Shown: positions 18,808-57,814 of the stretch, piece after piece
Position numbering within the stretch: position 1 is the first letter of the stretch
How the letters are laid out: each line of letters begins with the position of its first letter
From: Trypanosoma brucei
Lineage: Eukaryota
Assembly: GCA_000002445.1 (NCBI GenBank)
Contig: CM000207.1
Coordinates: 896,001 to 960,000, forward strand
Direction of reading: 5' to 3'
DNA: 64,000 nt
Made by a program: the position numbers and the translations under genes
Notes under the pieces: model-generated
What the model was told of the DNA's origin: nothing
The model's input: the letters and a program-made list of their open reading frames with translations, nothing else
The model's database searches: none

Positions 18808-21800
18808 ATGGAGGCGATTTACTTTACTACTAAGCTGGATGAGGTTCGCAGTTATTATGAATCTGATACGAAAAGCGATGACGACATCGTTTACGCTGTT
18901 TACAGTTTAGTGAACGATGCGCACACCGTGTCAAAAATGTTATTGTTAGAGTCGCGTTTCGAAGAACTCCGACGCTGTCTCAGTGTGTGTTGGGTTGCCC
19001 TTGGGGAAGAGCATGTGAAGGAAGATGGTCGTATTGTGTTGGGTAATCTCACTGGCGAGGACCGCAGAATGATCGACTTACTCCTGCAGCGTACTCTGCT
19101 TCTGGAACAACAGACTGAGGAAGTTATCCAGAAGAATAAGGCACAGAACATTATGAGCTATACGGCAGAGGTAATCCGCAGCCAGCTTGCCACATTGACA
19201 AAAGAAAGCGGGCTGAAGAGTGGAATTGGCACTGCTAACGGTGATAACAAGGAGAGAGGACAGGGTGAATCAAAACCTCCCGTAACCCCACCTAAAAGAG
19301 GTTCTGCCTTTGGAAGAAGCAAATTGATGAGGCGCTGGGGAGGAGAGAGGGCTACACCTCCGCTTGTGACGTACACTCGCTTTTCCAACGCTTCTTCTGG
19401 GCTGCCTTATGAAACCGTTTCATCTCTGACGGAGAGCGATGAAGGAGCGCAACCCGAAGGTAGTTCTTCCTTCTCTCACTATACTTTGAGAGACGTCTCG
19501 GCGACCGCGATTCACAGAGTCGGCAACGGAAGCTATTCATCTTCGGTGAGTGGTGGCGCCGATGTGCGGCCCGGTGCAGCAGTATGTGTCCCGAGTGAGA
19601 ACTTTGTACCACCTGTGAACTCCTCTGAGCTGTTTGGACCCAATGCGTCGACCCTCGGCAGAGATCAGCGGGGAATTTGTAGCGGATTGGCCGAGGCATC
19701 AGCGGGCCCATCTCGGTCACCTTCAGAAAAGTCCTCCAGCTTTAGTTCGTATACCTCTGCCCTGTCGGACGTCTGGGCCGCGGACACGGGAAAGCGTATC
19801 GCTCGGACGGCAACGGCAATGAGAGTGGCAGTAGAAGAGCAGTACTTTCCTGCTGGGGTGGTTGAAGGTTTAGACAATGCAATACTTTCTGAGGTAAAAC
19901 AGGATTCTGTGAAGGGGCCACCAGAGATCCCACCGCGCTTGTCGCATACTTTGACTTGCGGTGCCTTGGTGGGACAACAGGATCACACAAAACGGAAAAG
20001 TGATGCAGCGACGGATGATGGGCTAGTGGCTTTTGATGAGTCTGTGAGTGGGGATGCGCCCGCCGATCCTCTGCGAGAAACTATGGAAACAGCGGATCAG
20101 CATGTTGAAACTGTGCCGTGTCTCCCACCGATGCAAAATGATGTCTCTCCTGGGTCATCGCAGGGATCCGTGGAACTATGCAGCGGGCAGCGGAATGATA
20201 CTCAGAGCACGAGTGGTTTTCTTCCCATGCTGACACTATGCCCGAAACTGTCCTCTGAAGCGAAAGCACATGTGGCCAAGGTGTGTAAGGAATACAAGGA
20301 AAAAATGATGGATGTTAATTTGTCCATGGAGGCCATGCGCCGTAAAACGGAGGAACAGAAACAGCTCTTAAATCCAAAGGATAAGTTTGTTCTCAAGGCA
20401 ACAAACGAGTGGATGAGAATGCAAAAAACACCGACTACGTCGCCAGGGGCCGCTGTCGAACCCTCGGTCGCAGGGCAGTCGGACTTGCCCACACCCTCAA
20501 AGGGGCCCGCCGAAGTTGCGTATAAGCAAGCTTGTTTGTCCGTTGGTCAAAGACTCCAGACCTCTCATACATGGAGAAGGAGGAGCAGCAGGATGCCAAG
20601 CTGCAGAACTGTCGAAAGCTTCGCAACTGATGAAAGTTTTTTCTCGCAAACAAACACTTTTGAATACCCCACCACTTCAAGCGCATCTCATACCGGGGTT
20701 GGTCCGTTGAATGGTATACGGGGTTCCGCGGGTAAAGCGGCCACTGATGAGACCCGCGAAAACGTCAGCCAAACAGATGGAGCGAAGGCCAGGTCATCGC
20801 CAACTCCGCGACGGAAGATTGCAGGGGTGAGGCTTACCGACGCACAGCATCAACTTAAGCGGCTGCGCTTGTTGAGTGACGAACCCTTTCCCGAGGTTCA
20901 CCGCATGGTAATTGAGCGTGCGGAGAAGATCGTGGATTTGGAACAAGGTGGTCTCAGCATTGGACGGCTGCGCTCACATCCACGTAGTTCACACAGAGAG
21001 GGGCTGCCATCCAATACTGAGAATTTTCCCGGCCTCTCTTTATCATCGGTTCAGACAAACTCTCTAACAAGGTATGGGCACGTGTTATCTTCTTTACCAT
21101 CGGGTAATATGCACCCTGGAACAGGGAGTAGTGAGCATCTTCCTTTGCTCTCGTGGATGAAACAAAATTGCGGCTCTCTTAGCGCAGCAGTGAGGAAAGA
21201 TGTCTTGGGCATTAGGCCCTCAAGCGGCGCAAATTTGGTGACCGTCGTCCGCAGCACCGACGCCAAGGTCACAGCTGAGGACCTTCAACCCACCATTCTG
21301 TCATCCATTGACGATCTTCACCGGCGCCCTAACTGGACCGTTCTAAACACTGCCACCTTAAGTATGTTTGCCCCGCTCCACCTAGCAGTAGTGCGGATTC
21401 AATTAGTATTGCGTCAGTTCATTGCCAAGCGCGAACTGAACGACCGCAAGCGTGCGGTAGAAGACCACCTTGCGCGCTTGGTTGTACGTGATGAATGCGC
21501 CATCGCCATACAGCGATGGGGACGCTGGTTGATATCACTACAGTTTGTTGCGGTACTGCTGTATCGAAGCAAAACCTATGAGAAGCTATCGGAGCGATCC
21601 TTAAACTGCGAGGCGCCGAGTTTTACCGATGTGTCGTACGAACTCATAAGGCGGTTCTCCGTTACAGGAAATCTGACAACGGCGTTCTTCACACCAACCC
21701 CTGAACCGAGAATCCGGAGTGGTAATCTCTCTAGAACGGGCAATCGCCGTGTAACGGTTGGCTGTCTCCCTTATTTCCCGCGCTCCACAGTGGGGCAAGC

Positions 21801-22848
21801 CCCTTTTGGCCTTCCATCCTCTTCGTGCACAACTATGTGTCAGGCGAGCGTATCTTTGTCACGAGAATCCTCACCGGTGAGGAGACAGCGGGAGATTGAT
21901 GCCTCTCGTGTAATTGTGAAGGCGTTCCGCAAGTGTAAACAAAGTAAGCTGCGTGTCTGGGAGCGGGAAATGGACAATTTTTTGCGTTTCGTCACTCGGA
22001 AAGCGAGCGCAGGTGAAACCTTCAAAGATTCCCGCTGCAAGTCGCAGCGCCAGACACAGAAGTATACTGGGGATGTTAAATGCTCGCCGCGGAGAGGTGG
22101 TCGGGCGGAAGACGCCACTCTCTTTCCAGTTTCGCCTGACCGCTTGTTGGGTGACACATACGCAGCTTGGGAGGCACGTGTCCGAAAAGCGAGGGAGGAG
22201 GGCAACTTCCTCACACCTCTCAACAGTGTGAAACTGTCCCAACTTTATTCCATCTATGAGCAGCGTCTGGAGGTTGAGGCATTGCGACGGCTGAGGGAGC
22301 TGGAGGCTCTCATAGAAGCTGAGGAAGAGCAGGTGAAGCGCGAGGAGCTAGAGCAATCATTGCAAGTGCTACAACCGTGCTTGCGGGGCTACCTCGCAAG
22401 GCGGCGTATTGCGTTCCGTTGGAAAGAACTTAAAAAGGGTAAACTTTTCTCGAATCGCCCAGCGCGACTCATCAACGTTTCTCGGAATAGAACCGCCGGT
22501 TTCCGTGGTCGTGCTGAAAGGGGAAGGACTGTCCCCTTGGAAGGAGAGTCTCTGGAGTTTGCATGTGAGGAGGAGCATCCCATTCCACCAAAAGTGGACA
22601 ATTTTATACAGCAGTCCATTAATCGCCGCAACACATTGATGATCCCAATTACAGATGAGGGGCGTACAGCCCGATTGAGGTTGGTTATAATGATGCAGAC
22701 GTGCTTGCGGCAGAAGGCAAGCCTTCTATCTGTTGCGGATCAGTATGTTACAGTTTGCGCCGTTGCAATACAGCGCTGGTGGCGCCTCATGACACTCTTG
22801 CGTAAGAGGTCCAGCGACAAAATACAAGGAGCAAATTGCGCGATTTAG
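18808..22848 (+). CDS. Conserved hypothetical protein (1346 aa) with several IQ calmodulin-binding-like motifs in the C-terminal third
   Basis: Long ATG-initiated ORF. IQ or IQ-like motifs include VLQPCLRGYLARRRIAF (LQxxxRGxxxRR, canonical), RIQLVLRQFIAKR, AIAIQRWGRWLI, VIVKAFRKCKQSK and VAIQRWWRLMTLLRKR. There is a Ser-rich low-complexity middle and no other recognised domain. Confidence 0.55.
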   Translation: MEAIYFTTKLDEVRSYYESDTKSDDDIVYAVYSLVNDAHTVSKMLLLESRFEELRRCLSVCWVALGEEHVKEDGRIVLGNLTGEDRRMIDLLLQRTLLLEQQTEEVIQKNKAQNIMSYTAEVIRSQLATLTKESGLKSGIGTANGDNKERGQGESKPPVTPPKRGSAFGRSKLMRRWGGERATPPLVTYTRFSNASSGLPYETVSSLTESDEGAQPEGSSSFSHYTLRDVSATAIHRVGNGSYSSSVSGGADVRPGAAVCVPSENFVPPVNSSELFGPNASTLGRDQRGICSGLAEASAGPSRSPSEKSSSFSSYTSALSDVWAADTGKRIARTATAMRVAVEEQYFPAGVVEGLDNAILSEVKQDSVKGPPEIPPRLSHTLTCGALVGQQDHTKRKSDAATDDGLVAFDESVSGDAPADPLRETMETADQHVETVPCLPPMQNDVSPGSSQGSVELCSGQRNDTQSTSGFLPMLTLCPKLSSEAKAHVAKVCKEYKEKMMDVNLSMEAMRRKTEEQKQLLNPKDKFVLKATNEWMRMQKTPTTSPGAAVEPSVAGQSDLPTPSKGPAEVAYKQACLSVGQRLQTSHTWRRRSSRMPSCRTVESFATDESFFSQTNTFEYPTTSSASHTGVGPLNGIRGSAGKAATDETRENVSQTDGAKARSSPTPRRKIAGVRLTDAQHQLKRLRLLSDEPFPEVHRMVIERAEKIVDLEQGGLSIGRLRSHPRSSHREGLPSNTENFPGLSLSSVQTNSLTRYGHVLSSLPSGNMHPGTGSSEHLPLLSWMKQNCGSLSAAVRKDVLGIRPSSGANLVTVVRSTDAKVTAEDLQPTILSSIDDLHRRPNWTVLNTATLSMFAPLHLAVVRIQLVLRQFIAKRELNDRKRAVEDHLARLVVRDECAIAIQRWGRWLISLQFVAVLLYRSKTYEKLSERSLNCEAPSFTDVSYELIRRFSVTGNLTTAFFTPTPEPRIRSGNLSRTGNRRVTVGCLPYFPRSTVGQAPFGLPSSSCTTMCQASVSLSRESSPVRRQREIDASRVIVKAFRKCKQSKLRVWEREMDNFLRFVTRKASAGETFKDSRCKSQRQTQKYTGDVKCSPRRGGRAEDATLFPVSPDRLLGDTYAAWEARVRKAREEGNFLTPLNSVKLSQLYSIYEQRLEVEALRRLRELEALIEAEEEQVKREELEQSLQVLQPCLRGYLARRRIAFRWKELKKGKLFSNRPARLINVSRNRTAGFRGRAERGRTVPLEGESLEFACEEEHPIPPKVDNFIQQSINRRNTLMIPITDEGRTARLRLVIMMQTCLRQKASLLSVADQYVTVCAVAIQRWWRLMTLLRKRSSDKIQGANCAI

Positions 22849-23316: not shown

Positions 23317-24552
23317 ATGTTTCAAAAAGCACTTCGTCGACTGCAGCAACAGGCATCACAGAATCCACCAGTTGGTTCCGCCAATATTCCTTCACCCTAC
23401 GCAACGGAAGGTGGGCACGTCCCCATTTGGTCCATCGTAAACGGCTTCGTGCAGAAACGTAATTGGGTGTTCCGTAACCCTGAGTGGTGTGACCTTTGCA
23501 AAGAACCTGTGGCATTGTGGGTGAACCATCACGGTCGTAAGGACCACGCCTTAATGGACATGCACTATACACAAATGATGGAATATCCGAGGCGGTGGAA
23601 CCCCGAGGAAGTTCTCGTGGCATTTTTTGACGAACTACAACTCCCCGTAGAAACGTATCAGCGTAGCTATACATGTTACGAACGTGCCCATAGGAATGAG
23701 CTTTACTCCATGCTTGTGGAGTTGGAGGAGGCCAAAATGCTTTACTTTGGGGAGCCGCGAAACACTTACCTTCACCGAATGCAAGGTGGTTTGCGTGGTA
23801 TGGACCATCAGGGTGCACTTGTGCTGCACCGCTACATCCTAGGCCCCTTCATGCGGCTATACCCCAATGCTCACATACAGGACTTCTCAAACCTCGTGGA
23901 CTTTGTAACCTGCGCGTACAATATGGAAACTGTTTACGATTTGTGTGGTTTCTACACACTTGATAAAGTAGCATTAAAGGCCGACTATAAACCGAGCTCA
24001 CCGGCAGCTTTGGGGTTAGGAGGAATCGCCGTACACTCCTCCCCTTCGCATGGATTTGTTCAGAACGCGGCAGAGTCCCAGCAGCAGTCGAGGCGAGCGA
24101 GTTCAACCGCTTCAACGGGGTCTCGTAGTGCTGCGGACATGGATGAAGAGGCTTTTTCACGTAAGGCTGTTTTTGTTAGGCAGTTGTTAGGTCAACTGCG
24201 ATGGTTGACACTTCCATGTGAAGAGCATCCGGCAGGTTGTAAATTCCCCCAACACCTGATGCTCTTGGGTGAGATTTGCCTCAAGTATCTTGTGGTGGAG
24301 ATAATAGCGGCACGCCTGTGTGAATATATGGTGCGAGTGGAGCCGGTGTGGCGTGACCATGGTTACGAGCGGGTCAAACTCAACGTTGATAAAATCATGA
24401 AACAGGGAAGGGATATATTACCCGAGCCAATAAAGTACTTTTACCGACCAATGTCACCCAATATGGATGACTTGTACAGTACCAAAGTAGGCGTGTTGGA
24501 TGAGGCACTGGAAAAGGCTGCGGTTACTCAATCACTCTCTAAAGGTGTGTAG
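23317..24552 (+). CDS. Conserved hypothetical protein (411 aa) with a single U1/matrin-type C2H2 zinc-finger-like motif
   Basis: ATG-initiated ORF downstream of a pyrimidine-rich tract (about 22990-23128). The motif CDLCKEPVALWVNHHGRKDH fits CX2CX9HX5H. The exact start is uncertain because an overlapping 72-aa uORF begins at 23244. Confidence 0.5.
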   Translation: MFQKALRRLQQQASQNPPVGSANIPSPYATEGGHVPIWSIVNGFVQKRNWVFRNPEWCDLCKEPVALWVNHHGRKDHALMDMHYTQMMEYPRRWNPEEVLVAFFDELQLPVETYQRSYTCYERAHRNELYSMLVELEEAKMLYFGEPRNTYLHRMQGGLRGMDHQGALVLHRYILGPFMRLYPNAHIQDFSNLVDFVTCAYNMETVYDLCGFYTLDKVALKADYKPSSPAALGLGGIAVHSSPSHGFVQNAAESQQQSRRASSTASTGSRSAADMDEEAFSRKAVFVRQLLGQLRWLTLPCEEHPAGCKFPQHLMLLGEICLKYLVVEIIAARLCEYMVRVEPVWRDHGYERVKLNVDKIMKQGRDILPEPIKYFYRPMSPNMDDLYSTKVGVLDEALEKAAVTQSLSKGV

Positions 24553-24890: not shown

Positions 24891-24944
24891 CCAGGAGGCA
24901 GAATAATACAGTCGCTGCCTTGAAGGTTGAGAGGGGACAGACGA

Positions 24945-25442
24945 ATGGATCCGGCGGTTAGGGAAAGCGTTTCGCGTATTCCACTGCTCAAAACTAAAGC
25001 TGGTCCTCGTGATGGGGAACAATGGACGCAACGACTAAAGGAAGAGTATACTTCTCTTATTCAGTTCGTGGAGAACAATAAAGCGAGTGATAACCATTGG
25101 TTTAAGCTCGAGAGCAATGAGGCAGGAACCCGGTGGTACGGGACATGCTGGACGTACTATAAGAATGAAAGATATGAGTTTAATATGAACTTTGACCTCG
25201 CTGTAACATACCCTCAAGCACCACCAGAGATTGCTTTACCAGAACTGGAGGGTAAAACAGTGAAAATGTACCGTGGTGGTAAAATTTGCATGACGACGCA
25301 CTTTTTCCCACTATGGGCTCGGAATGTCCCTTATTTTGGCATCAGTCATGCACTCGCATTAGGATTGGGTCCGTGGTTATCCATTGAGGTACCGGCGATG
25401 GTGGAGGATGGGGTTCTTAAACCCAAAAAAGTGGAAAGTTAG
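24945..25442 (+). CDS. UFC1: Ufm1-conjugating enzyme 1 (UFC1, E2 of the Ufm1 pathway)
   Basis: From the first ATG: [69 protein letters not shown]...[39 protein letters not shown]. This aligns nearly residue-for-residue with human UFC1 ([61 protein letters not shown]...[39 protein letters not shown]). The ORF-track start at 24927 is a TTG artefact. Confidence 0.85.
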
Positions 25443-26215: not shown

Positions 26216-28570
26216 ATGGTGAATGGTCTCCCACCGGCATTTCAGCAAACACACTATTCTTCTGACGATATTTTTGCCTTCCTGAGGACTGCTTCACCGG
26301 TGCAGAGTTCATGTGAAATACTTTTCCCTGAAGAAGTTTGGGTACAACAGGAGTTGCAGTTCTATGAGGACTCCTATACGGAACAGCAGGACCTTAGAAC
26401 ATGCATTGTTACTTTTAATGTTGCAAGTAAGAAACCACCTCAAAATTTAGCTTCGCTTATTGCACTCACCATGCCGGGTGCAGGTGGTGAGCCTGTGGAT
26501 CTCATTATGGTGAGCCTTCAAGAAGTTGACATGAGCGCCTCGGCTATGCTGAAGGATGAGACAGACGCTTCGGTAGTGTGGGTGAGTGCACTCCAAGCGG
26601 TAATTGGCGCTGACTCGCAAGCAGCCGGCGAATCTCCTTACTTTGCGTTTCCTCCCAAACAACTTGTTGGCTTACTACTCTGCGTATTCATTCGCCGCTC
26701 TTTGCTGCCGCATGCGCAGAAGATGGCCATCACAACGGTGGCGACAGGGGCACTGGGGACCATGGGAAACAAAGGTGCAGTGGGGCTCCACCTCGGGCTC
26801 TGCCGCTCTAATTTATGTTTCATTAATATGCATCTTGCGGCGGGGCAAAAGAACGTGGTGAAGCGCAACAACGACGTTAGCAAGATATTTATGGGCATGG
26901 ACTTCAACACCACGAAACGACCCATTTCGTTGGAAACCCGAGGGGGTAACAGCGCGCAATCGGAGTTGCAGTTTCAGTATCCGGAGTTTTTGCCCCACAA
27001 TAACGACGTCATTGTTGTTGCGGGTGACCTTAACTATCGGGTGAATCTGACTTACAGGGAGTCGTTGCAGTTGGCAATGAAAAAAGATTATGCGACTCTG
27101 CTGAAACATGATGAGTTTGTGAAAGAACTTGCGAACACGCATTCACCGTGGATGGGTTTCGTCGAGCTGACCCCCACGTACCCACCTACGTACCGCTATG
27201 ACATTGGTACGAATAATTACGACACAAGTGAAAAGCAACGGGTACCGAGTTACACTGACCGAATAGCAATCTGGACGAGACGGAGGGACCATCAGAGCTC
27301 TATTCGTTTGGAACGACTTCAAGCATTGACAGACGTTATGAGCAGCGACCACAAACCGGTTCAGGCGTGCCTGTGCCTTCCCATAAGCCGTGAGGTGTTG
27401 GAGAAGAAGATTTCAGTCACACAAAGTCTGCGCGACAGCGTCAAGAGAGAGGGGTTGGACCGTATTAGAAAAGCCAAAATATCGGTTAATTCACAAAGTC
27501 TCAATTTTGGGGTTCGCCAATTCGGCGATTGTGGGAGCCGTCAGCCACTTAAGATTACCAACGAAGGCGACTGTGTGGCCGTGATCAAGGCGTTTCGGCA
27601 GCAAGACGGAGATCCCAGCAAGGGTGCGTGGCTGCGTGTGTTTCCGTTAATCATCTTCATTCCTCCTCGTAAGGAAAAGGAGGTGATGATAGAGTGTCAA
27701 CTGGACCGCAACTCAACGGAATGGGTCAGAAACTGGAGGCCCTTTGAGGGTCGCGGCGAGGTAGAAATTACTTCTACGCTCGTGTTGTGTGTGCGTAACG
27801 GTGATATTCACTTTGTGGAGTGTCGCTGCACGGTAAGGCCAAGTGTGTTCGGAAATACCCTTGACAACATTTCACTTCTTCGCAATGAAGTGTGTGCTGC
27901 CGCCTACACGCTATGGGGCACGCCCGAGAGGAGATCTGGTGGATGCATGCCCCAAATCCCAAAAGAGTTGTGGTATCTTTGTGAGGCCATATATGAGCGC
28001 GGAGCTCAGCAACCGAACCTGTTCACTGAAAACCCTTCCACTGAAGTCTGCGATGCGATTATGAAGCATCTGAACACGCAGTGTAGACCACTCCCATCTG
28101 AGTACAACGTACAGTGCATTTCAGCATGTTTAATTTACTTTCTCCAGTCGCTGCAGGAGCCCGTTGTGCCCTACGAATTGTATGAAAAAGCCTTGGCAGT
28201 GCTAAAATCGAAGAGCGGGAATCCGTTTCAGTTTGTTCAGCAGCAGTTACCTCCCCTTCACGCGAATGTTTGGATATATGTCTGCTCTCTGATGAATTTC
28301 TTACTGCGACCTGTGAACACGTGCGGCAACGGACTTACCACCAAATTCCTAGCAAGAGTGCTTAGTGATGTGATGCTCGTTCGCCCCGAAGCTCTAACGC
28401 AAATGCCACCCAGTGTAGGTACGTGCACTCATCAGGAGGTAGCGTCAAATGCTCCCCCTAAGGGCGGGACCGCATTGCAGGCATTTCGGCAGCAACTGCA
28501 GCAAGAGAGGGAGGATGCTTTGCGCTTCGTCGAGTGTTTTCTTGTTCCACCCCCAGCCGTGATATTGTGA
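26216..28570 (+). CDS. Inositol polyphosphate 5-phosphatase, OCRL/INPP5B-like (5-phosphatase, ASH and RhoGAP-like domains)
   Basis: 5-phosphatase motifs VAGDLNYRVNL, PSYTDRIAIW and SDHKPV. A beta-sandwich ASH-like segment follows (SLNFGVRQFGDCGSRQPLKITNEGDCVAVIKA). A RhoGAP-like segment reads IPKELWYLCEAIYERGAQQPNLFTENPSTEVCDAIMKHL...CLIYFLQSLQEPVVPYELYEKAL. The first ATG is at 26216; the 26198 start is a TTG artefact. Confidence 0.8.
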   Translation: MVNGLPPAFQQTHYSSDDIFAFLRTASPVQSSCEILFPEEVWVQQELQFYEDSYTEQQDLRTCIVTFNVASKKPPQNLASLIALTMPGAGGEPVDLIMVSLQEVDMSASAMLKDETDASVVWVSALQAVIGADSQAAGESPYFAFPPKQLVGLLLCVFIRRSLLPHAQKMAITTVATGALGTMGNKGAVGLHLGLCRSNLCFINMHLAAGQKNVVKRNNDVSKIFMGMDFNTTKRPISLETRGGNSAQSELQFQYPEFLPHNNDVIVVAGDLNYRVNLTYRESLQLAMKKDYATLLKHDEFVKELANTHSPWMGFVELTPTYPPTYRYDIGTNNYDTSEKQRVPSYTDRIAIWTRRRDHQSSIRLERLQALTDVMSSDHKPVQACLCLPISREVLEKKISVTQSLRDSVKREGLDRIRKAKISVNSQSLNFGVRQFGDCGSRQPLKITNEGDCVAVIKAFRQQDGDPSKGAWLRVFPLIIFIPPRKEKEVMIECQLDRNSTEWVRNWRPFEGRGEVEITSTLVLCVRNGDIHFVECRCTVRPSVFGNTLDNISLLRNEVCAAAYTLWGTPERRSGGCMPQIPKELWYLCEAIYERGAQQPNLFTENPSTEVCDAIMKHLNTQCRPLPSEYNVQCISACLIYFLQSLQEPVVPYELYEKALAVLKSKSGNPFQFVQQQLPPLHANVWIYVCSLMNFLLRPVNTCGNGLTTKFLARVLSDVMLVRPEALTQMPPSVGTCTHQEVASNAPPKGGTALQAFRQQLQQEREDALRFVECFLVPPPAVIL

Positions 28571-29402: not shown

Positions 29403-29861
29403 ATCGGGCAGAGTATACTCCTGGTCTGTCGTTTCCGCTCGCTTTGCATCACGTTAGGACCTTTGACATTTTGTGTGTTCGGTGAAGTCCGCTGGGTGGT
29501 CGGAGTATCCTGGGGCGAGAGAGTGGAGGGAAGGGCGAGAGAATTCTACCCCGTTACGTTGTTTCTTCTTTTTCTTTTTTTTATATCTTAAATAATTATC
29601 TTCTGATTTGTGCATTTGAGTTTGCTTCTGTTTTACCACGTGTGAAACGACAGCCAGTGTGCAATGTACCGGCAACACCTCTCTACATCTTTCCTTTGCT
29701 CCACATCTTCTTCGCCTGCTTCAACATCAACAGTGCATCACGTGTAGTGTACGGGAAAGCTAATAAGGGATCCTACACACAAGTAGGTGGTAGCGTACGA
29801 AGCTGCACGGACGGGAGGGGAAGCGGCCGCATCCGCGGTTCTTGACTTTAACGCACCTTTC

Positions 29862-32800
29862 ATGACTTTCTTGTATCATCGGTGGTACAACGATGACTTT
29901 ACTATAGCGAATACGCCTAGTGGGAGCTTTCGTGATGTCTGCATGACTTGGTCCTATACGGATCCTCGTATCAAGGAAACGACCCTCATTTTTCTTCTTT
30001 CTCCCTCGGTTGCCCTCACCGAAGGAGCTGAGGGTTTCGTGGAACATGGACTACATGCGCTTAAAATAGTTCACATTAGAGGTGCAACCTCCCAACCAAG
30101 CAAAGGGGAGGTGGAAGAGGTAGTTTGCTGCACAGTGGTTGAAATTGTTGGCTCCATCCCTGATGGCGTTGTCCACGGTACAGGAGGCGTGATTTTCCTG
30201 TCAACGCGGCATTTTCTATTTCACATTCCGACCGGGGAACAGAGCCGTACCGGTGGAAAGGAAAGGGAAGACGCACTTGACCACTTTGTGTTTACGGAGA
30301 AGAATAGTTGGGAACGGCGGTGCGGCGTCGTTCGACCTCTTTATGACGTGGAGCCCATACGCCATGTTCTTTATGGAGCTGAAGGTAACAAAAGTCCTGT
30401 GCTTCATATCGTAACAGTGGTCTCACAGCCTTCACCATCCAGTGTGTCAATGCAGAGTGCTGTTGTTGATCTTTTAGTGGTGGCATCTAGCAGGGACGAA
30501 AGGGACATCTCTCAGTACTCGCGAACGGAGCAGGGCCTGCTAGGAAAGACAATCAGTCGGTGGCGCGGCAGTTCAAAAGCGTCCGGTGACTCCTCGGTTG
30601 CCGTTACGCATACTTTTGTGGTAGCGGTGGTACGGTGCGAGATTTCAACATCTGCCGACCGTCCAGCGGCGTGGAAACTGCTCCACCTCCACGTTGACCG
30701 CAATGTCCCATTCCAGAGGCGCCTGGAGGAGTTGACAGGGAGGGAAGACTTGTGTGGTGTTGGTTGTGATCGGAAGGGAAGTAACGCCACCGCCGCCCAC
30801 ATGGATCCGAGTAAGTGTGTTTGGTGTTACCTTCCGAACGAGGGTGGAGCGCGTGCGGGGTATTGTGGCCTCGTATTTGCTTTGGTGCCGCATAAGCCGT
30901 CAACCAAACTCACGTTAGTTTGCGGTAGTTATGACCCGTCGGGGCAGTCCTACCGGGTTGGTTTTGTGAAGGGAGACGATGCGCATGGGGTGGGCCCGCC
31001 CCTCTACGAAGAGAGGGATAATACGGAGGAGATGCTGTGGAGCCTTGCCGAAGGCACTCACACGGTGCAGATGGTCATGATTGGTAGACCGAACGAAGCC
31101 CTGCACGATAATGAAGGTACATGCGGAGGAGCCAACTTTCAAGGTCGTGAAGGGCTTCGTGCTCAGTGGAGGAAAAGCGCCAGCTCCTCCACCTGGATGC
31201 GGAAGTCCGGTTTAGCAACCGTGCTTAGCTTTGTGGTAGACTTTGTTGACGATGGGTTACATAAGAGCAGAAATCTACGGCAGGGTCTCCATGTCGCTGT
31301 TTGTACGGCGTGGGAACGCAACCGACACGGTCGCTTTCCACTACCCCGTACGGTTTGTTGGTTAGGTACCATCCCTCTACCTATTGGACAAGCTGCCACT
31401 TCCGCCGTGTTGTTTCATGCTGAAGGCAACGACGAGGGAATGAATGTGTGGCGTATGATGGATCGGGTGAATCTGTCGGACTGTGCGGCTGTTTGTGATG
31501 ACACCGTTTCGTGGTATCATGCCTTGCCAACGTCCGTTGTCCCAACCGTCGCCGCCCCCGTGAGCCGGACCAACTTGCGGTGTTTTGTCAGTGTGAATAC
31601 ATTGCTAAAAAAAACACAACTCACTTATGTGCTTGACACACGTTTTGTCGAAGAAAAAACATGTGAGGAACAGCGGCCATCTTTACTGTCATCACTGGAA
31701 CTGTCAAAATTGTTCTACACGCGCCCAGCGATCGCGGAGGAAGGACACGGAGCGATGTACAACCGAGGAGCGACCAGCGATGACTGCGCGGACCTAGCCG
31801 CGTACGTAGCCCGTAGTGTGGCGAGTTCCTCTGGACCTCTCATGGTGGCACACATTTTTAACGAGGCGTGGAGGAGTGTGGCGCTAGTGAAGCACCCAGA
31901 AACTGCCGTCCACGCGCATGATGGTGTTGCACGTGATGGATTGCTACCTTCGACAGATGGAGAGATGATTGCGCTTGGTGATACTGTGTGCCACTTCTTG
32001 TTGTTGGTTTTACAGGAGCTAGATTGGATCAATTCCCCTCAGAACACCAGGCTCCACATCCTGGTGTTAAGTATTCTTGAGGCTGTGTATGCAGAACCGC
32101 AGTTACCACCGTCGTCGAGGTGTTTTGAGGAGGCAACTAATGGGGGCGGGAAGACACAGATGCTGCTCGTCGGGGTGAATGAACAGCGCACCGTGCGATT
32201 GCTGCTTCAGGGAAGCGGTATGTGGCGACGGGTTGCACCTATGCTGTTCGCTTGGGCGAACTACCGCTTTTACGGTAACGGGTGTGAAAATGAACTGGAA
32301 GAAGATAGTGACTCCCTATTTGAAGATACTCTACGTCCGTTTATTGAAGGCTGGGAGAAACAAGAGAATATGGCGGGATTTGACTCACATGCTTGCACTG
32401 CTTCCTGCAATAACGATAGCGAAAGCGGCGAAAGTTGCCTTATTCTGAAACGGTGCGATGTGATACTGCGGCACCTACAACACTCTCAAGATTGTGACAA
32501 ATACAGAAGTGCTGTGGCTGCCCTCTTCCGAGGCGGCGTGAGCTTGAATCGAGTCACTGCACTTGCCTCATGGGCGGGCGATGTGCAAGCCGTCGACCCG
32601 GCCGTCCTTTTGTTTCAGCTGCTACTGGAAGTATGCACACAGTGCGAGGAGCATGTGCAGTTGGCTGCCGCGGTTGACCGGGAGACGATATGCCAATTGA
32701 CTGCCTTAGTGATGCAGTCACGCTTACCGCCTGTAGATACGGTTAAAAATGATGAGAATTCCCTACCCGCGGCGCCAGATGTCCTTCACTCAATGTCAGA

Positions 32801-35800
32801 GGTGCTCAGTTCGTGGAATTTTGAACTTCTTCGTGATTGGCCTCTGGGGGGCACATGCGGAGCCCTTCCCGTGGTGTATCTCTTCTATCACATGGTGGGT
32901 GCGCTTATGGCCTCTCCATGTGACAATATGGAAGATAGAAGGGAGAGATGTAACATTATTACCCATTCTGTGATGTTGCTGCAATGGCTCTGTGGGGACG
33001 ACGCGAGACAATCCACCGAAGTCTTCGGGGCACTGATTTCAGGTAAGGTTCCTCTTGTAGCACTTTGCACTGTGGGTGGATTCGCTGTACAAGCTGGTTG
33101 TGCACCGTCCTCTGGGGTGCCCCCATGCGACGCCGTCGCGCGCCGCAGTTTTAACAGAGTACTTTACCATCTTTTTGTGTCTCCCACGACATCTGTTTTG
33201 CCGCAGTTACTGCTTGCTGAATTCGGTATATCTTACGATTATGTCTCTCACGAAAAGATTGGATTCAGCGTATGGAAACGTGTGCTGGAGGGCGATGTCG
33301 CGGCAGCGTTCAGCTCACGTCTCCTTAACCAACTGCACAAATCCCTTGGTTCCTTCAGTAACAAGAAGCATCCAACTCGTGCGGTTCAGGTATCGTTGCT
33401 ACTTGAGTATCTTCGATCCGTTTTTATGGTAAGTTTGCCTCGGCTGGTGATGGCGCTCGGCGAATCGGAGGAAATCGTGGAAATTGCACTGGGCTCAACC
33501 ATACCATCCTTCATCATGTCAGAATTATCCGTAGACCCCGTTCCGCCAGTGGAGGGATGTGACAATGTTACGTGCGTTTTTTTCAATGTTACTCGTGAAG
33601 TGAAGAAGTTACTGCATTTGTACATGGAAGGAAGCGGTGAAGTGCGCTGTCTGGCGATGCTTTTCGGCGTTTTCTGTGACTCCTGCAAGTCATTGCTCGG
33701 ACACGTTGACGACACAGAAAATGTGCGGGACAGCGCTCAGCCTGGCGGCGTAGAGAGGGAACAGAGTATGTTCACTTTCACTTTACAGGAGATGTACTTC
33801 ATATCTCTTCAGGTGCTCTCAAGTGATATGGGTAGGTTTGTGGTTGTTGCAGAGCTTATCCGTCGGAGTGTTCGGCGCCAGGCAGTGCGTGACCTGGAGA
33901 AATCGCTCCACCGGTTCGATGCCTCTTGGTTGAACAATAGTTCGCGTCTCCAGGAATTCATAAGTAGTGCAGTCGCCAACCTAGATGGAGTTGTATCTTC
34001 TTTAGAAAGCGTGGCACCTCTTTATGCACACACACTGGTGATGATATTCCTTGATGAACTTGTGTTGCTTGCTGGAGAGACGACTGAAGCAGTTGGGAGA
34101 GTTGTCGCTTCTCCATCGATTCCACATGAGCAAGGAGAAGGGTATTATAAGGGTGAGGTTATTGTGGACTTGAACGATAAGTTGACCAAGTGCGTCAAAC
34201 AGATGGCGGCTGAGAAATGGAAAGGCCTGAGGAAAGAAGACAGGCGTCTCATTGCACGTGTGCTCTCCAGTTGCCTTGTTCCTTCTTCTGATGAAGCCTT
34301 TGGGGACGGAGGCTACGAGGAGAGTGATGTGCATTTGCAGATGCGCGACGTGAAAGTTCGTATGTCGAAGTCCCTGCAACGTCGTACCATTGACCCCACT
34401 GTGATGGGCATCGTTGTTGGCGAGGCGTCCGCCAATGAAAGCGATAAGTTTCCTGTGGAACTGAGGCGCAATAACGACTCAGATGGTGTTTTGAAGGTGG
34501 GGGGTGATGCAGAAAGAGCCGAATTCGCCCTACTGGTAAAGGAGGAGGCGTATGTGAGGCGGAAACTGAAGGGTCAGCTTCTTGATAGCTACGCGGAACT
34601 AATCAATGGCAATGGGGTTCATGATTCACTGGCGATTTTGTATTTGGCACTACGTGAGGAGCAGCGACGCCGCCGCTTCGTTGAGTATGTGACTGAATGC
34701 AAGGATTTCGTTCTCGATTTCGCTATTTCCCTTCACATGCTCATGCGTGAGTACTACAATGAGGGTGTTTACCACCTCCAGGAGAAGGCCTTAAGGGAAA
34801 TGGAGAGGCGCGTAGGACTTCTTCTCCTTCAAGAGCGTGAGGCGCGGACGGCTATTGAGGCGGTGCATTCTGTAGGTCGGGATATTTACTTCTGTTGGGA
34901 AAAAGAGCAAAGATCCCTATTTGAGGGTGAAAGTCGGTGCCGTTTGGCTATGTTAGAAGATGAGGAGAATACTCGCGACGCCATTTACGAGCACTTTGCA
35001 AAGGAGGAGGTAGCGGTCGTGCGGCGGTGCGAAGAGCGACTCGAGGAAGAAGCTTGGCGCCAGGAGGAAGAGCAGTGGGCCCTTGAGATGAAGCAGCGGG
35101 AAGATGAAGAGGTGAGTGCAGCACGCACGCAGAATAAGAAACCATCGGAGGGTAAGCGAACAGGTACAAGTGCGTTTACGCGGTGGCAAGAGCGCCGACT
35201 CCAAATGGTGATGGTGCATGAGGAGGTTTCCGAACCCATGGAACAGGAACGGTGTCCCACATCGTCGATTACTGAGGCGGAAGCGCTACCGACAACGAAA
35301 CCGGAAATTTTACCGAGAGAGAGAACAACAGCCTTTGTGCAAGATCCTGTGGAGGCCCTCACGTCGCTCGTGAGGACCGAACCAACTGAGGAGTCCGTGG
35401 ACGGTAGAGGTTACAGTGCGCTGTTTGACTCATCAGAGTCCCTGTTTGGTGCCATTTCGCGGTTTCAGCAGCAGATAATATCCACAGTGGCACCTCCTCC
35501 ATTGTCAGTGGCGAAACAGAAGGAGCAGGAGCAGGGAGGGGAGATGCCGCACCAAAGCCCCACCGAACTGACTGCAAATCCCCATTCTTCAACACAAACA
35601 CAGCAACCGGTGGGGTCGGAGTGGGAGTGGGGATGGGATGAGGTGCCTGACGATGCGGGTGGCTCATGGAAGGTGAGTCGAAATGACTGTAAGACTGGTG
35701 TTGCCACTGAAAATTATTTGACCACGAGGATACCAGATGAGAAGAAAGAAGAGTTCTCAGAGAAAATTATCAAGTTAGAGGCATTGTCCAAAGCAGTTAA

Positions 35801-36305
35801 ACCTCGACCACAGCGGCGGCGCCCATTTGGTGGCGTAGTCAACCTCCATGCAAAGCCGACAGAAGGTAAAGTGAGCCCAATAAACGACAGTATTCCCGAA
35901 ACTGGACAGGAAGAACAGCAAATTGGTGAAATATCTCTAAGGAGCGCCGATGAGGGTCATGCAAAGGAAGTGAGCACGCTGCTCACATCGACTGAAATGT
36001 GGAACGCCAAAGGAGAGGAGCTACACCCCTTTTCGGCAACCGTAGGTGAACCACTGGATGTGGCGACTTCGTCTTTATGGGTCGGAGAGCATCAAATGAA
36101 TTTAGCCGTTAGCGATGTGTGTGAGGAGGTGGTGTGTCACACGGAGTATCTTCCCAAGGATAGCTTGGAAATGAGTAGTGTGATTCTCTCGCTTAGCAGC
36201 TTCCACGTAATGCAAGAAGAGGAAGGAGGTGCCCGCCTTGCGCTTCTCAACGAAGAGCGGATCGGACGTGTTTTTCTCAACCGTCGACTAGTTATGGGAT
36301 TGTGA
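29862..36305 (+). CDS. Very large conserved hypothetical protein (about 2147 aa from the first ATG) with no domain I can recognise; acidic/coiled-coil segments lie near the C-terminus
   Basis: Uninterrupted 6.5-kb + strand ORF. The track start at 29787 is GTG. The first in-frame ATG is 29862 (MTFLYHRW...), which may make the 5'UTR start codon uncertain. A 67-aa uORF at 29642-29845 lies in another frame. Low-complexity E/R-rich stretch at about 34560-35100. Confidence 0.55.
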   Translation: MTFLYHRWYNDDFTIANTPSGSFRDVCMTWSYTDPRIKETTLIFLLSPSVALTEGAEGFVEHGLHALKIVHIRGATSQPSKGEVEEVVCCTVVEIVGSIPDGVVHGTGGVIFLSTRHFLFHIPTGEQSRTGGKEREDALDHFVFTEKNSWERRCGVVRPLYDVEPIRHVLYGAEGNKSPVLHIVTVVSQPSPSSVSMQSAVVDLLVVASSRDERDISQYSRTEQGLLGKTISRWRGSSKASGDSSVAVTHTFVVAVVRCEISTSADRPAAWKLLHLHVDRNVPFQRRLEELTGREDLCGVGCDRKGSNATAAHMDPSKCVWCYLPNEGGARAGYCGLVFALVPHKPSTKLTLVCGSYDPSGQSYRVGFVKGDDAHGVGPPLYEERDNTEEMLWSLAEGTHTVQMVMIGRPNEALHDNEGTCGGANFQGREGLRAQWRKSASSSTWMRKSGLATVLSFVVDFVDDGLHKSRNLRQGLHVAVCTAWERNRHGRFPLPRTVCWLGTIPLPIGQAATSAVLFHAEGNDEGMNVWRMMDRVNLSDCAAVCDDTVSWYHALPTSVVPTVAAPVSRTNLRCFVSVNTLLKKTQLTYVLDTRFVEEKTCEEQRPSLLSSLELSKLFYTRPAIAEEGHGAMYNRGATSDDCADLAAYVARSVASSSGPLMVAHIFNEAWRSVALVKHPETAVHAHDGVARDGLLPSTDGEMIALGDTVCHFLLLVLQELDWINSPQNTRLHILVLSILEAVYAEPQLPPSSRCFEEATNGGGKTQMLLVGVNEQRTVRLLLQGSGMWRRVAPMLFAWANYRFYGNGCENELEEDSDSLFEDTLRPFIEGWEKQENMAGFDSHACTASCNNDSESGESCLILKRCDVILRHLQHSQDCDKYRSAVAALFRGGVSLNRVTALASWAGDVQAVDPAVLLFQLLLEVCTQCEEHVQLAAAVDRETICQLTALVMQSRLPPVDTVKNDENSLPAAPDVLHSMSEVLSSWNFELLRDWPLGGTCGALPVVYLFYHMVGALMASPCDNMEDRRERCNIITHSVMLLQWLCGDDARQSTEVFGALISGKVPLVALCTVGGFAVQAGCAPSSGVPPCDAVARRSFNRVLYHLFVSPTTSVLPQLLLAEFGISYDYVSHEKIGFSVWKRVLEGDVAAAFSSRLLNQLHKSLGSFSNKKHPTRAVQVSLLLEYLRSVFMVSLPRLVMALGESEEIVEIALGSTIPSFIMSELSVDPVPPVEGCDNVTCVFFNVTREVKKLLHLYMEGSGEVRCLAMLFGVFCDSCKSLLGHVDDTENVRDSAQPGGVEREQSMFTFTLQEMYFISLQVLSSDMGRFVVVAELIRRSVRRQAVRDLEKSLHRFDASWLNNSSRLQEFISSAVANLDGVVSSLESVAPLYAHTLVMIFLDELVLLAGETTEAVGRVVASPSIPHEQGEGYYKGEVIVDLNDKLTKCVKQMAAEKWKGLRKEDRRLIARVLSSCLVPSSDEAFGDGGYEESDVHLQMRDVKVRMSKSLQRRTIDPTVMGIVVGEASANESDKFPVELRRNNDSDGVLKVGGDAERAEFALLVKEEAYVRRKLKGQLLDSYAELINGNGVHDSLAILYLALREEQRRRRFVEYVTECKDFVLDFAISLHMLMREYYNEGVYHLQEKALREMERRVGLLLLQEREARTAIEAVHSVGRDIYFCWEKEQRSLFEGESRCRLAMLEDEENTRDAIYEHFAKEEVAVVRRCEERLEEEAWRQEEEQWALEMKQREDEEVSAARTQNKKPSEGKRTGTSAFTRWQERRLQMVMVHEEVSEPMEQERCPTSSITEAEALPTTKPEILPRERTTAFVQDPVEALTSLVRTEPTEESVDGRGYSALFDSSESLFGAISRFQQQIISTVAPPPLSVAKQKEQEQGGEMPHQSPTELTANPHSSTQTQQPVGSEWEWGWDEVPDDAGGSWKVSRNDCKTGVATENYLTTRIPDEKKEEFSEKIIKLEALSKAVKPRPQRRRPFGGVVNLHAKPTEGKVSPINDSIPETGQEEQQIGEISLRSADEGHAKEVSTLLTSTEMWNAKGEELHPFSATVGEPLDVATSSLWVGEHQMNLAVSDVCEEVVCHTEYLPKDSLEMSSVILSLSSFHVMQEEEGGARLALLNEERIGRVFLNRRLVMGL

Positions 36306-37894: not shown

Positions 37895-38439
37895 AGGTGT
37901 GGAGAGAAAGGAGGGAGATGACAATGGAGAAGAGACTGTTTTGTGGAAGGCGTGCTTTTTAAAAAACCTTCGATTTATGACGTGGAGTATTTTTTTTACT
38001 CTTTTTTTTTGTTATCTTTGCTTATCCATTAGCGTTTCTTAGGTGCTTCTCGTCATCGGCACTGCTCTCCTACGCGAGTCAACCTACGGTGGCTAACCGT
38101 TTGTCCTTGGTGGCCGTGAAACCGCGACGCTTTTCTTTGTTTTTTTTTCTCGTTACACGTTTTTGTGGTTATCCGGTGGTTGCGGCGTTAATATGAAACT
38201 ATATAATTTTTCCCGATGTTTTTTTTACCGCGTTAATAATTTTTCAACAATGTTAGAGAGGTGGAGGCGCCCCTTCATTATCTTCTCCATATACTCCATT
38301 TTGTTGTGTCATTTTTTATTTTTATTTTTTACCAAGCTAGTTGTGATACGCCGCGTATCGTTAAGTGGCGAAGGAGGAAGAAGGAACGAAAGCGAAAAAT
38401 AAAGTTTGAATCCGTTTGAGATACAGACACAACAAAACT

Positions 38440-57288: not shown

Positions 57289-57814
57289 GATTGATAGCCT
57301 TCTCTTTATATATCTTCCCTCGAAGCGCAGTGACGAGCGACTCAATGAGAGGCGAAGGCGGTGATATTGACAGTGGTGAGAAATGTGGGAGACACGTAAA
57401 TTATGGGAGTCCCCTTGCCTCCTTTGTTGTTGCGCAGCGAATGGTATTAGTGCCCACATGCCCGTTCTAGTGGGTTGAATGCATTTAAAAATAACATTCA
57501 CTTCGTGTCACAAGCGCATAAATGTGCGAGCAGATAGAGGTATATGCACACGTGTTCACTTATGTTTGTATTGTACTCCTATGCCGTTTCAGCAGTGTCA
57601 CTGATCTGTCTTTTACACTATTCGCGTGACCGGCCCTTCACCTTCCTCCCAGCCTTTTCCTGATTGTCTAATGAACGAAAGGGAAGAGAAAAAATAAAGG
57701 GAATTAATACACTCATACATATATACATAAATATTAATACATATCATATATACGTGTCAGTAACCTCAGCGTAAAGGCAAAAAAAAAGTGAAGCAAGAAG
57801 AGGGGAGTGTCATT

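What the first reader, a model, noticed from the sequence alone, without database searches (positions are those of the whole stretch)
26216..28570. OCRL/INPP5B-type tri-domain inositol 5-phosphatase (5-phosphatase, ASH, RhoGAP-like) in a trypanosome
The catalytic motifs (GDLNYR, P-S-Y-T-DRI, SDHKPV) are followed by an ASH-like beta-sandwich segment and a RhoGAP-like segment (FTENPSTEVCDAIMKHL...LQSLQEPVVPYELYEKAL). As in OCRL, the arginine finger appears absent: a Phe-Thr-Glu sits where GAP-active proteins have Phe-Arg. This is the Lowe-syndrome protein architecture linked to endocytic and ciliary trafficking. In a flagellated parasite whose endocytosis is confined to the flagellar pocket, it is a strong candidate regulator of PI(4,5)P2 at the pocket.
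Basis: partly seen in the sequence, partly recalled or inferred. Interest (0 to 1): 0.5.

Follow-up and report, generated by a model that had tools for sequence, protein, structure and literature searches.

The report
Known trypanosome OCRL homologue (TbOCRL)
This gene is the trypanosome version of the human Lowe-syndrome lipid phosphatase OCRL; the domain reading is correct, but the protein was named TbOCRL and studied in 2011, and those experiments did not find the proposed flagellar-pocket role.

Summary
Window 26216-28570 (+) is an intact 784-aa ORF with all three catalytic motifs. It has a 5-phosphatase domain (res 65-384, Pfam E 5e-64), an ASH beta-sandwich (res 422-541) and a RhoGAP-like helical domain (res 579-728, Pfam 43 bits against a cut-off of 24.5). 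ASH alone scores below Pfam's cut-off (21.3 against 27). However, a kinetoplastid-only profile hits human OCRL ASH+RhoGAP (3qis) in one stretch at E 9e-40. The AlphaFold model (pLDDT 89) superposes on 3qis with TM 0.87. Thr604 sits in the arginine-finger column, where OCRL has Gln and p50RhoGAP has Arg. The F&H-pocket Trp (OCRL W739) is kept as W586. There is no PH domain and no clathrin or AP-2 motif.

The window comes from T. equiperdum OVI. The protein is identical, over the published part (about residue 264 to the C-terminus), to T. brucei Tb09.160.4180, which is TbOCRL (Abbasi et al. 2011). That study reported the only RhoGAP-domain protein in the genome, a yeast two-hybrid partner of TbRHP, an RNAi multinucleate and cytokinesis phenotype, no flagellar-pocket enlargement, and puncta not at the pocket. 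So the architecture is right, the pocket-regulator idea is unsupported, and the finding is already known. Low interest.

The parts
26216..28570 (+). Complete CDS of the OCRL/INPP5B-family inositol polyphosphate 5-phosphatase (784 aa plus TGA). It is the T. equiperdum copy of TbOCRL (Tb09.160.4180).
   Evidence: ORF and translation. The exact protein lies on NCBI contig CZPT02000860.1 of GCA_001457755.2, which is the T. equiperdum OVI assembly. It is identical to every Tb09.160.4180 block in Fig S3 of PMC3214021.
26216..26407 (+). Short N-terminal region (res 1-64) with no PH domain. It contains a helix at res 38-53 that packs before the catalytic domain.
   Evidence: No PF16776 (OCRL clathrin-binding/PH) hit even at E<=10, whereas metazoan homologues carry it. 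AF2 secondary structure.
26408..27367 (+). Inositol polyphosphate 5-phosphatase catalytic domain (res 65-384).
   Evidence: Pfam PF22669 E 4.9e-64. PDB sequence hits: SPsynaptojanin 3e-35, INPP5B 3e-33, OCRL 1e-30. Foldseek TM on target is 0.91 for INPP5B 3mtc and for OCRL 4cmn. All family-invariant residues are present: N68, E103, D105, H206, D271, N273, R275, D348, R349, D378, H379.
27023..27040 (+). GDLNYR catalytic motif (res 270-275).
   Evidence: G270, D271, N273, Y274 and R275 are invariant in 65 homologues.
27245..27265 (+). PSYTDRI catalytic motif (res 344-350).
   Evidence: P344, D348 and R349 are invariant. R342 just upstream is the inositol-phosphate-binding Arg marked in Fig S3 of PMC3214021.
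27344..27361 (+). SDHKPV catalytic motif (res 377-382).
   Evidence: S377, D378 and H379 are invariant.
27398..27466 (+). Linker helix between the phosphatase and ASH domains (res 395-417).
   Evidence: AF2 helices at res 395-412 and 414-417 with pLDDT >95. In human OCRL the equivalent helix contributes to Rab binding; that point rests on my own knowledge and was not tested here.
27479..27838 (+). ASH (immunoglobulin-like beta-sandwich) domain (res 422-541).
   Evidence: Pfam PF21310 at 21.3 bits, below the cut-off of 27. The kinetoplastid profile hits OCRL 3qis/2qv2 across ASH+RhoGAP at E 9e-40 and the ASH-only chain 3qbt_B at 6.5e-5. AF2 shows all-beta structure at pLDDT 88-97. Foldseek match to 3qis_A has TM 0.87 on the target.
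27950..28399 (+). RhoGAP-like helical domain (res 579-728), predicted to be GAP-inactive.
   Evidence: Pfam PF00620 at 43.3 bits against a cut-off of 24.5. OCRL 2qv2/3qis E 5e-14 by single sequence. The profile also hits p85alpha BH (4e-11), ARHGAP5 (3e-8) and p50RhoGAP (4e-5). AF2 helices at res 583-728.
27971..27973 (+). [quoted passage not shown]
   Evidence: The pairwise alignment to 3qis_A puts W586 on chain residue 204, which is OCRL 739. W739/W620 is required for F&H binding (PMC6743453). The column is near-invariant.
28025..28027 (+). T604, the residue occupying the arginine-finger column.
   Evidence: Fig S3 of PMC3214021 shows the same column, with Q in mammals and T in Tb and Tc.
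28409..28468 (+). Disordered, kinetoplastid-specific insertion (res 732-751).
   Evidence: AF2 pLDDT <50 at res 732-752. It appears as a gap in metazoan sequences in Fig S3.
28469..28534 (+). C-terminal helix (res 752-773), the last helix of the RhoGAP-like domain.
   Evidence: AF2 helix at res 752-773. It aligns with the C-terminal 'KKAQEFIHQFL' of INPP5B in Fig S3 and is conserved in kinetoplastids.

Best explanation
This is the Trypanozoon orthologue of the OCRL/INPP5B family, already published as TbOCRL. It has a catalytically intact type II inositol polyphosphate 5-phosphatase domain, which most likely removes the 5-phosphate from PI(4,5)P2 (and PI(3,4,5)P3 or soluble IP3/IP4) on endomembranes. 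That domain is fused to an ASH-RhoGAP-like module that serves as a targeting and binding platform and does not act as an enzyme. The RhoGAP-like domain has Thr604 in place of the arginine finger, so it should bind a Rho-type GTPase without stimulating hydrolysis. The published partner is the single trypanosome Rho-like protein TbRHP. The domain keeps the F&H-motif pocket (W586) for an adaptor that has not been identified. Shown here: the domain folds, the intact catalytic residues, the missing Arg finger, the conserved F&H Trp, the absence of PH, clathrin and AP-2 elements, and identity with Tb09.160.4180. Taken from the literature: the TbRHP interaction, the RNAi cytokinesis and mitosis phenotype, and the cytosolic plus punctate or endocytic localisation. 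Inferred: PI(4,5)P2 as the substrate, Rab binding through ASH, and GAP inactivity.
For: Pfam domains. PDB sequence hits to 5-phosphatases and to OCRL ASH-RhoGAP. The kinetoplastid-only profile against OCRL 3qis gives E 8.9e-40 in one stretch. The AF2 model has pLDDT 89.4. Foldseek gives TM 0.91 to the INPP5B and OCRL catalytic domains and TM 0.87 to OCRL ASH-RhoGAP. Every family-invariant catalytic residue is present. The 4-phosphate/inositol-binding positions marked in Fig S3 are kept as R/Y and R342. T604 sits in the Arg-finger column. W586 corresponds to OCRL W739. The best non-kinetoplastid homologues are all 5-phosphatase+ASH+RhoGAP proteins from Naegleria, fungi and metazoan INPP5B/OCRL. 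The sequence is identical to the published Tb09.160.4180 blocks. Functional data come from PMC3214021 and PMC7595295.
Against: I found no enzymology for this protein, so the substrate is inferred from homology. Cestari and colleagues label it 'inositol polyphosphate 5-phosphatase 2', a soluble-substrate name, in one paper and 'PIP5Pase 2' in another. The tagged protein was essentially all soluble after hypotonic lysis, so any membrane association is transient. Essentiality reports disagree: RNAi gave a strong growth defect in PMC3214021, while PMC7595295 Table 1 says 'No (BF)'. The F668-equivalent Rab-contact position appears to be Val, not Phe, in my alignment, so Rab binding is not assured.
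Confidence: 0.88

Rival explanations
1. One reading: the protein is the principal PI(4,5)P2 5-phosphatase acting at the flagellar pocket. It would oppose the pocket-adjacent PIP kinase and so control endocytosis there.
For: Homology to OCRL, which acts at late clathrin-coated pits and cilia (PMC4278560). PI(4,5)P2 is reported at the flagellar pocket, and PIP5K knock-down impairs endocytosis (PMC7595295). TrypTag localisation is 'cytoplasm/endocytic'. Puncta lie 'near' the pocket.
Against: TbOCRL RNAi caused no flagellar-pocket enlargement, and the authors concluded there was no major block in general endocytosis. Puncta did not co-localise with the ConA-marked pocket. The protein lacks the PH domain, clathrin boxes and AP-2 motifs that take human OCRL to coated pits. 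Three synaptojanin-like 5-phosphatases exist in T. brucei and could do this job.
Confidence: 0.15
2. The protein works mainly as a soluble inositol-polyphosphate (IP3/IP4) 5-phosphatase in inositol phosphate signalling, not as a membrane lipid phosphatase.
For: It is listed as 'Inositol polyphosphate 5-phosphatase 2' in the T. brucei PI-system table. The protein fractionates as soluble. INPP5B and OCRL hydrolyse soluble substrates in vitro (own knowledge).
Against: The same group elsewhere calls it 'phosphatidylinositol 5-phosphatase (PIP5Pase 2)'. The ASH-RhoGAP-like targeting module and the F&H pocket make sense only for recruitment to membranes or GTPases. Its closest structural matches are the lipid-preferring type II enzymes.
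Confidence: 0.1
3. The RhoGAP domain is a working GAP for TbRHP despite lacking the arginine finger, for example by using another basic residue. The protein would then be primarily a Rho regulator.
For: It is reported as the only RhoGAP-domain protein in the genome, and it binds TbRHP in yeast two-hybrid. RNAi phenocopies TbRHP RNAi. The T. vivax orthologue carries Arg at the finger column, and Leishmania has Arg one residue later.
Against: T604 occupies the finger column, and no family member except T. vivax has Arg there. Human OCRL, with the same fold, is catalytically inactive (PMC4278560). If loss of a GAP raised TbRHP-GTP, one would not necessarily expect a phenocopy of TbRHP loss.
Confidence: 0.05

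Closest known systems
TbOCRL (Trypanosoma brucei Tb09.160.4180; Abbasi et al. 2011, PLoS One 6:e26890, PMC3214021)
   Same: It is the same gene. Every sequence block of Tb09.160.4180 printed in the paper's Fig S3 (about residue 264 to the C-terminal PPPAVIL) is identical to the window protein. The window comes from T. equiperdum OVI, a Trypanozoon very close to T. brucei.
   Different: It is the T. equiperdum copy. The paper describes only phosphatase plus RhoGAP domains, without naming ASH, and speaks of an 'R to Q' change. Its own alignment and mine show Thr, not Gln, at that column in trypanosomes.
Human OCRL1 / INPP5B (Lowe syndrome protein and its paralogue)
   Same: The order 5-phosphatase - ASH - RhoGAP-like is the same. 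The tandem ASH-RhoGAP unit superposes at TM 0.87. The arginine finger is lost in both. The F&H-pocket Trp is conserved. The catalytic motifs are intact.
   Different: Overall identity is about 26-28%. There is no N-terminal PH domain. There is no clathrin box or AP-2 motif, which makes it closer to INPP5B than to OCRL in this respect. There is no C-terminal CAAX. The finger column holds Thr, not Gln. A roughly 20-residue disordered insertion precedes the last helix. The known F&H partners APPL1 and Ses1/2 are reported absent from T. brucei.
Dictyostelium Dd5P4 (OCRL homologue)
   Same: It is the single OCRL-type protein of a protist, with the same three domains and a functional F&H pocket (W620) (PMC6743453).
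   Different: Dd5P4's partners and its roles in the contractile vacuole and in phagocytosis are defined experimentally. No F&H partner is known for the trypanosome protein.
Synaptojanin-type 5-phosphatases (SPsynaptojanin 1i9y, SYNJ1)
   Same: They are the best single-sequence and structural matches for the catalytic domain alone.
   Different: They have no ASH or RhoGAP-like domains, and synaptojanins carry a Sac1 domain instead. T. brucei has separate SYJ1-3 genes.

Membership tests
OCRL/INPP5B family (type II inositol polyphosphate 5-phosphatases with ASH-RhoGAP-like tail) | 5-phosphatase (IPPc) catalytic domain with intact catalytic motifs | tested here: met
   PF22669 E 4.9e-64. TM 0.91 to INPP5B and OCRL catalytic domains. 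GDLNYR, PSYTDRI, SDHKPV and all invariant residues are present.
OCRL/INPP5B family (type II inositol polyphosphate 5-phosphatases with ASH-RhoGAP-like tail) | ASH (Ig-like) domain directly after the catalytic domain | tested here: met
   The single sequence scores below Pfam's cut-off (21.3 against 27 bits). The kinetoplastid profile hits OCRL ASH+RhoGAP at E 9e-40 and ASH-only 3qbt_B at 6.5e-5. The AF2 beta-sandwich at res 422-541 superposes as part of 3qis_A. Many orthologues pass PF21310.
OCRL/INPP5B family (type II inositol polyphosphate 5-phosphatases with ASH-RhoGAP-like tail) | C-terminal RhoGAP-like domain | tested here: met
   PF00620 at 43.3 bits against a cut-off of 24.5. OCRL 2qv2/3qis E 5e-14. 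Canonical RhoGAPs are hit by the profile.
OCRL/INPP5B family (type II inositol polyphosphate 5-phosphatases with ASH-RhoGAP-like tail) | Catalytic arginine finger of the RhoGAP domain replaced (GAP-dead) | tested here: met
   T604 aligns to OCRL Gln, to p85alpha Arg and to p50RhoGAP R85. 64 of 65 family members lack Arg in this column. GAP inactivity itself was not measured.
OCRL/INPP5B family (type II inositol polyphosphate 5-phosphatases with ASH-RhoGAP-like tail) | F&H-motif binding pocket (Trp equivalent to OCRL W739) | tested here: met
   W586 in PKELW aligns to chain residue 204 of 3qis_A, which is W739. The column is near-invariant. Conservation in T. brucei was already noted by Pirruccello 2011, as cited in PMC6743453. 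Only the Trp was checked, not the whole patch.
OCRL/INPP5B family (type II inositol polyphosphate 5-phosphatases with ASH-RhoGAP-like tail) | N-terminal PH domain (a feature of metazoan members) | tested here: not met
   Only 64 residues precede the catalytic domain, and there is no PF16776 hit at E<=10. This is a lineage-specific accessory, also missing from other kinetoplastid members. It is not a core defining feature.
OCRL/INPP5B family (type II inositol polyphosphate 5-phosphatases with ASH-RhoGAP-like tail) | Clathrin-box and AP-2 binding motifs (OCRL-specific; absent from INPP5B) | tested here: not met
   A regex scan finds no L[LIVMF]x[LIVMF][DE], FxDxF or DP[FW].
OCRL/INPP5B family (type II inositol polyphosphate 5-phosphatases with ASH-RhoGAP-like tail) | Rab GTPase binding through the linker helix and ASH | not testable with these tools
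   The fold is conserved, but interface residues are not clearly conserved (alignment). This needs pull-downs or complex modelling.
OCRL/INPP5B family (type II inositol polyphosphate 5-phosphatases with ASH-RhoGAP-like tail) | PI(4,5)P2 / PI(3,4,5)P3 5-phosphatase activity | not testable with these tools
   This rests on homology only. I found no enzymology for this protein in the searched literature.
Active RhoGAP family | Arginine finger in the (G/L)(I/L)FR motif | tested here: not met
   Thr604.

The most novel reading that the evidence does not exclude
The most novel reading that my evidence does not exclude has two parts. First, TbOCRL, stripped of PH, clathrin and AP-2 elements, is targeted only by its GAP-dead RhoGAP-like domain (binding TbRHP) and by its conserved F&H pocket (W586) binding a still-unknown trypanosome F&H adaptor. 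Second, through that adaptor a sub-pool acts on PI(4,5)P2 in the endocytic system next to the flagellar pocket, linking phosphoinositide turnover to cytokinesis.
Probability: 0.2. Interest if true: 0.4.

Novelty: already known. Interest (0 to 1): 0.15.

Why it matters
It matters little as a discovery. The gene is annotated in all trypanosomatid genomes. It was named TbOCRL in 2011 with interaction, RNAi and localisation data. Its F&H pocket conservation was noted in 2011 and again in 2019, and it appears in reviews of OCRL and of the T. brucei phosphoinositide system. What remains open is modest but real: the substrate has never been measured, the F&H partner is unknown, and the reports on essentiality conflict. 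It also corrects a detail: the arginine-finger column holds Thr in trypanosomes, not Gln.

Tried and rejected
1. Single-sequence Pfam for ASH scored below the gathering cut-off (21.3 against 27 bits), so I did not rely on it. I replaced it with a kinetoplastid-only profile against PDB and a structure prediction with fold search.
2. A scan for clathrin boxes, W-box, FxDxF, DPF/W and CAAX found none. An NPF at residue 669 lies inside a RhoGAP helix region and is not conserved in orthologues (GKAPL in T. cruzi and Leishmania), so I rejected it as an EH-binding motif.
3. I tried to read Demmel et al. 2014 (flagellar-pocket PIP kinase, PMC4021478) for any mention of a pocket 5-phosphatase. The paper is not held.
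4. Two paper look-ups failed on the '&' character and one search failed on 'PI(4,5)P2'. The look-ups were repeated without the offending terms.
5. The Rab-interface residues (F668/G664 of OCRL, recalled from memory) could not be mapped confidently, because the local alignment is ambiguous by one residue. I left this as untested.
6. The antisense ORF at 26813-27142 (109 aa) lies inside the CDS on the opposite strand of a unidirectional gene cluster. I treated it as a chance ORF.
7. The mapping of Tb09.160.4180 to Tb927.9.5680 comes from my memory of the chromosome 9 renumbering and was not verified by a tool. Statements from PMC7595295 and PMC5921579 depend on it.
Full report
THE OBSERVATION. 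Window 26216-28570 (+) is an uninterrupted ORF of 784 codons ending in TGA. The mechanical ORF list starts six codons earlier at a TTG. The ATG at 26216 is the real start, because Met1 is a near-invariant column in an alignment of 65 homologues. The quoted RhoGAP strings are present too. The upstream and downstream intergenic regions carry the long polypyrimidine tracts typical of trypanosome gene boundaries. All large ORFs in the window lie on the + strand. The 109-aa antisense ORF inside the gene is best read as chance.

DOMAINS BY SEQUENCE. Pfam gives three hits:
- Exo_endo_phos2, the 5-phosphatase type, at residues 65-384 with E 4.9e-64.
- RhoGAP at residues 582-721 with 43.3 bits, against a curated cut-off of 24.5.
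- OCRL-like_ASH at residues 425-535 with 21.3 bits, below the cut-off of 27 (E 3e-4).

I built a profile from only kinetoplastid C-terminal halves (14 sequences, window residues 395-784), so that no metazoan OCRL sequence could bias it. I searched that profile against all PDB sequences. Human OCRL ASH-RhoGAP chains 3qis_A and 2qv2_A come first, at E 8.9e-40 and 1e-39, each as one continuous stretch spanning both domains. The ASH-only chain of the Rab8a complex (3qbt_B) is hit at 6.5e-5. Next come the p85alpha BH domain (4e-11) and canonical RhoGAPs: ARHGAP5 at 3e-8, p190 at 6e-7 and p50RhoGAP at 4e-5.

DOMAINS BY STRUCTURE. An AlphaFold2 model built from the 65-sequence alignment has mean pLDDT 89.4 and pTM 0.77. 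It shows an all-beta domain at residues 422-541 and an all-helical domain at 583-728. A disordered stretch at 732-752 is followed by a final helix at 752-773. Foldseek against the PDB matches the catalytic domain to INPP5B (3mtc) and OCRL (4cmn), both with TM 0.91 on the target. It matches the C-terminal half to OCRL ASH-RhoGAP 3qis_A at E 2.3e-18, with TM 0.87 on the 293-residue target and rmsd 3.6 Å. A TM of 0.87 over a two-domain target means that both folds and their mutual arrangement are conserved.

THE ARGININE FINGER AND OTHER FUNCTIONAL SITES.
- The finger column holds Thr604.
- Across the 65 homologues this column is Thr in most trypanosomatids, Ser in a few, Gln in metazoa and Lys in Naegleria. 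It is Arg only in T. vivax.
[quoted passage not shown] That column is near-invariant.
- All catalytic residues that are invariant in the family are present.
- The protein lacks the N-terminal PH domain, any clathrin box, any AP-2 motif and any CAAX. These are the elements that take human OCRL to clathrin-coated pits.

WHOSE GENE IS IT. The exact protein is encoded on NCBI contig CZPT02000860.1 of assembly GCA_001457755.2. The CZPT02 accession series belongs to the Trypanosoma equiperdum OVI draft genome (PMC5278650). The closest named homologues fit a Trypanozoon origin: T. congolense at 63% identity (partial), T. melophagium 60%, T. grayi 59%, T. cruzi 58%, T. vivax 53% and Leishmania 47%.

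The T. brucei orthologue, Tb09.160.4180, was designated TbOCRL by Abbasi et al. 2011 (PMC3214021). Their supplementary alignment prints Tb09.160.4180 from about residue 264 to the C-terminus, and every block is identical to the window protein. That paper reports the following:
- It is the only confidently predicted RhoGAP-domain ORF in the genome.
- It belongs to the OCRL family, with orthologues in trypanosomatids, amoebae, metazoa and fungi.
- It binds the sole Rho-like GTPase TbRHP in yeast two-hybrid.
- RNAi in bloodstream forms gives multinucleate, giant cells that phenocopy TbRHP RNAi.
- No flagellar-pocket enlargement was seen.
- Tagged protein is soluble and cytoplasmic, with one or two puncta that did not co-localise with the ConA-labelled pocket.

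The OCRL review (PMC4278560) cites TbOCRL. Luscher et al. 2019 (PMC6743453) state that the F&H patch is conserved in T. brucei, citing Pirruccello 2011. The T. brucei phosphoinositide review lists Tb927.9.5680 as cytoplasm/endocytic (TrypTag) and not essential in bloodstream forms. My equating of that id with Tb09.160.4180 rests on memory of the renumbering.

HOW IT MOST LIKELY WORKS. It is a catalytically competent type II 5-phosphatase acting on PI(4,5)P2 (inferred). It is recruited transiently from the cytosol to endomembranes through its ASH-RhoGAP-like module. The RhoGAP-like domain is GAP-dead (Thr604; shown by sequence, not by assay). It serves as a docking surface for TbRHP (published yeast two-hybrid) and for an unidentified F&H-motif adaptor (W586 conserved). 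ASH may bind Rabs (inferred, untested). The knock-down phenotype in the literature is cytokinesis and mitosis failure, not an endocytic block.

RIVAL EXPLANATIONS.
It is contradicted by the absence of a BigEye phenotype and by the localisation data, and weakened by the missing clathrin and AP-2 elements.
- A mainly soluble IP3/IP4 phosphatase (about 0.1).
- A genuine GAP (about 0.05).

COMPARISON AND NOVELTY. The protein is a bona fide member of the OCRL/INPP5B family. The core defining features were tested and met. The metazoan accessories (PH domain, clathrin and AP-2 motifs) are absent, as in other protist members. This has all been published for the T. brucei orthologue, so the finding is 'already known'. 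This check adds three small points:
- ASH, which the 2011 paper did not name, is confirmed by profile and by model.
- The 'R to Q' statement in that paper is loose. Trypanosomes have Thr at that column, as the paper's own alignment shows.
- T. vivax alone has Arg there.

Interest is low, at 0.15.

Noticed in passing
Related protein P0007 (T. vivax orthologue), the column aligned to window residue 604 (28025-28027): Among 65 OCRL-family homologues, only the T. vivax protein has Arg in the arginine-finger column (LFREKGS). Leishmania species have Arg one residue later (LFTRS). This could be a reversion to an active GAP in one lineage, or it could be neutral drift.
   Followed up: partly
Literature on the T. 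brucei orthologue of window 26216-28570: Reports on essentiality conflict. RNAi gave 'profound effects on BSF proliferation' in PMC3214021, but Table 1 of PMC7595295 lists Tb927.9.5680 as not essential in bloodstream forms. The same group names it both 'IP5Pase 2' and 'PIP5Pase 2'. The id mapping is from my memory.
   Followed up: partly
PMC3214021 text compared with its Fig S3; window 28025-28027: [quoted passage not shown] In its own alignment, and in mine, the trypanosome residue is Thr (NLFTENPS) and Gln is the metazoan state.
   Followed up: yes
window 24927-25442 (+) and 57788-58978 (+): A UFC1 gene (the Ufm1-conjugating E2; Pfam E 6e-79) lies immediately upstream of the OCRL gene. A ThiF-family E1-like gene lies 30 kb downstream in the same directional cluster. 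I did not determine whether the ThiF protein is the Ufm1 E1 (Uba5).
   Followed up: no
window 29787-36305 (+), 18808-22848 (+), 23317-24552 (+), 55393-57288 (+), 217-1494 (+): Five long ORFs (2172, 1346, 411, 631 and 425 aa) have no Pfam match at E<=0.001. They are probably kinetoplastid-specific proteins. I did not examine them.
   Followed up: no
window 1-64000: The rest of the window is an ordinary unidirectional housekeeping cluster. It holds a CorA-like Mg transporter (4153-6177), a USP7-like deubiquitinase (7423-11451), a type II topoisomerase of 1221 aa (14107-17772), ribosomal P2 (29061-29402), trypanosome TFIIB (36857-37894) and NAP (38416-39708). It also holds a SKIP/SNW protein (44444-46036), a polyprenyl synthase (46613-47692), an NAD-glutamate dehydrogenase (48324-51326), Erv1 (59624-60445) and ribosomal S3 (61245-62057).
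   Followed up: partly
Protein P0001 (Logan assemblies) compared with the window protein: A 99.5%-identical variant (A8T, R624T, E654D, V674I) exists only in unannotated Logan read-assemblies. It is presumably another Trypanozoon strain. No named T. brucei entry appeared in the protein database search.
   Followed up: no
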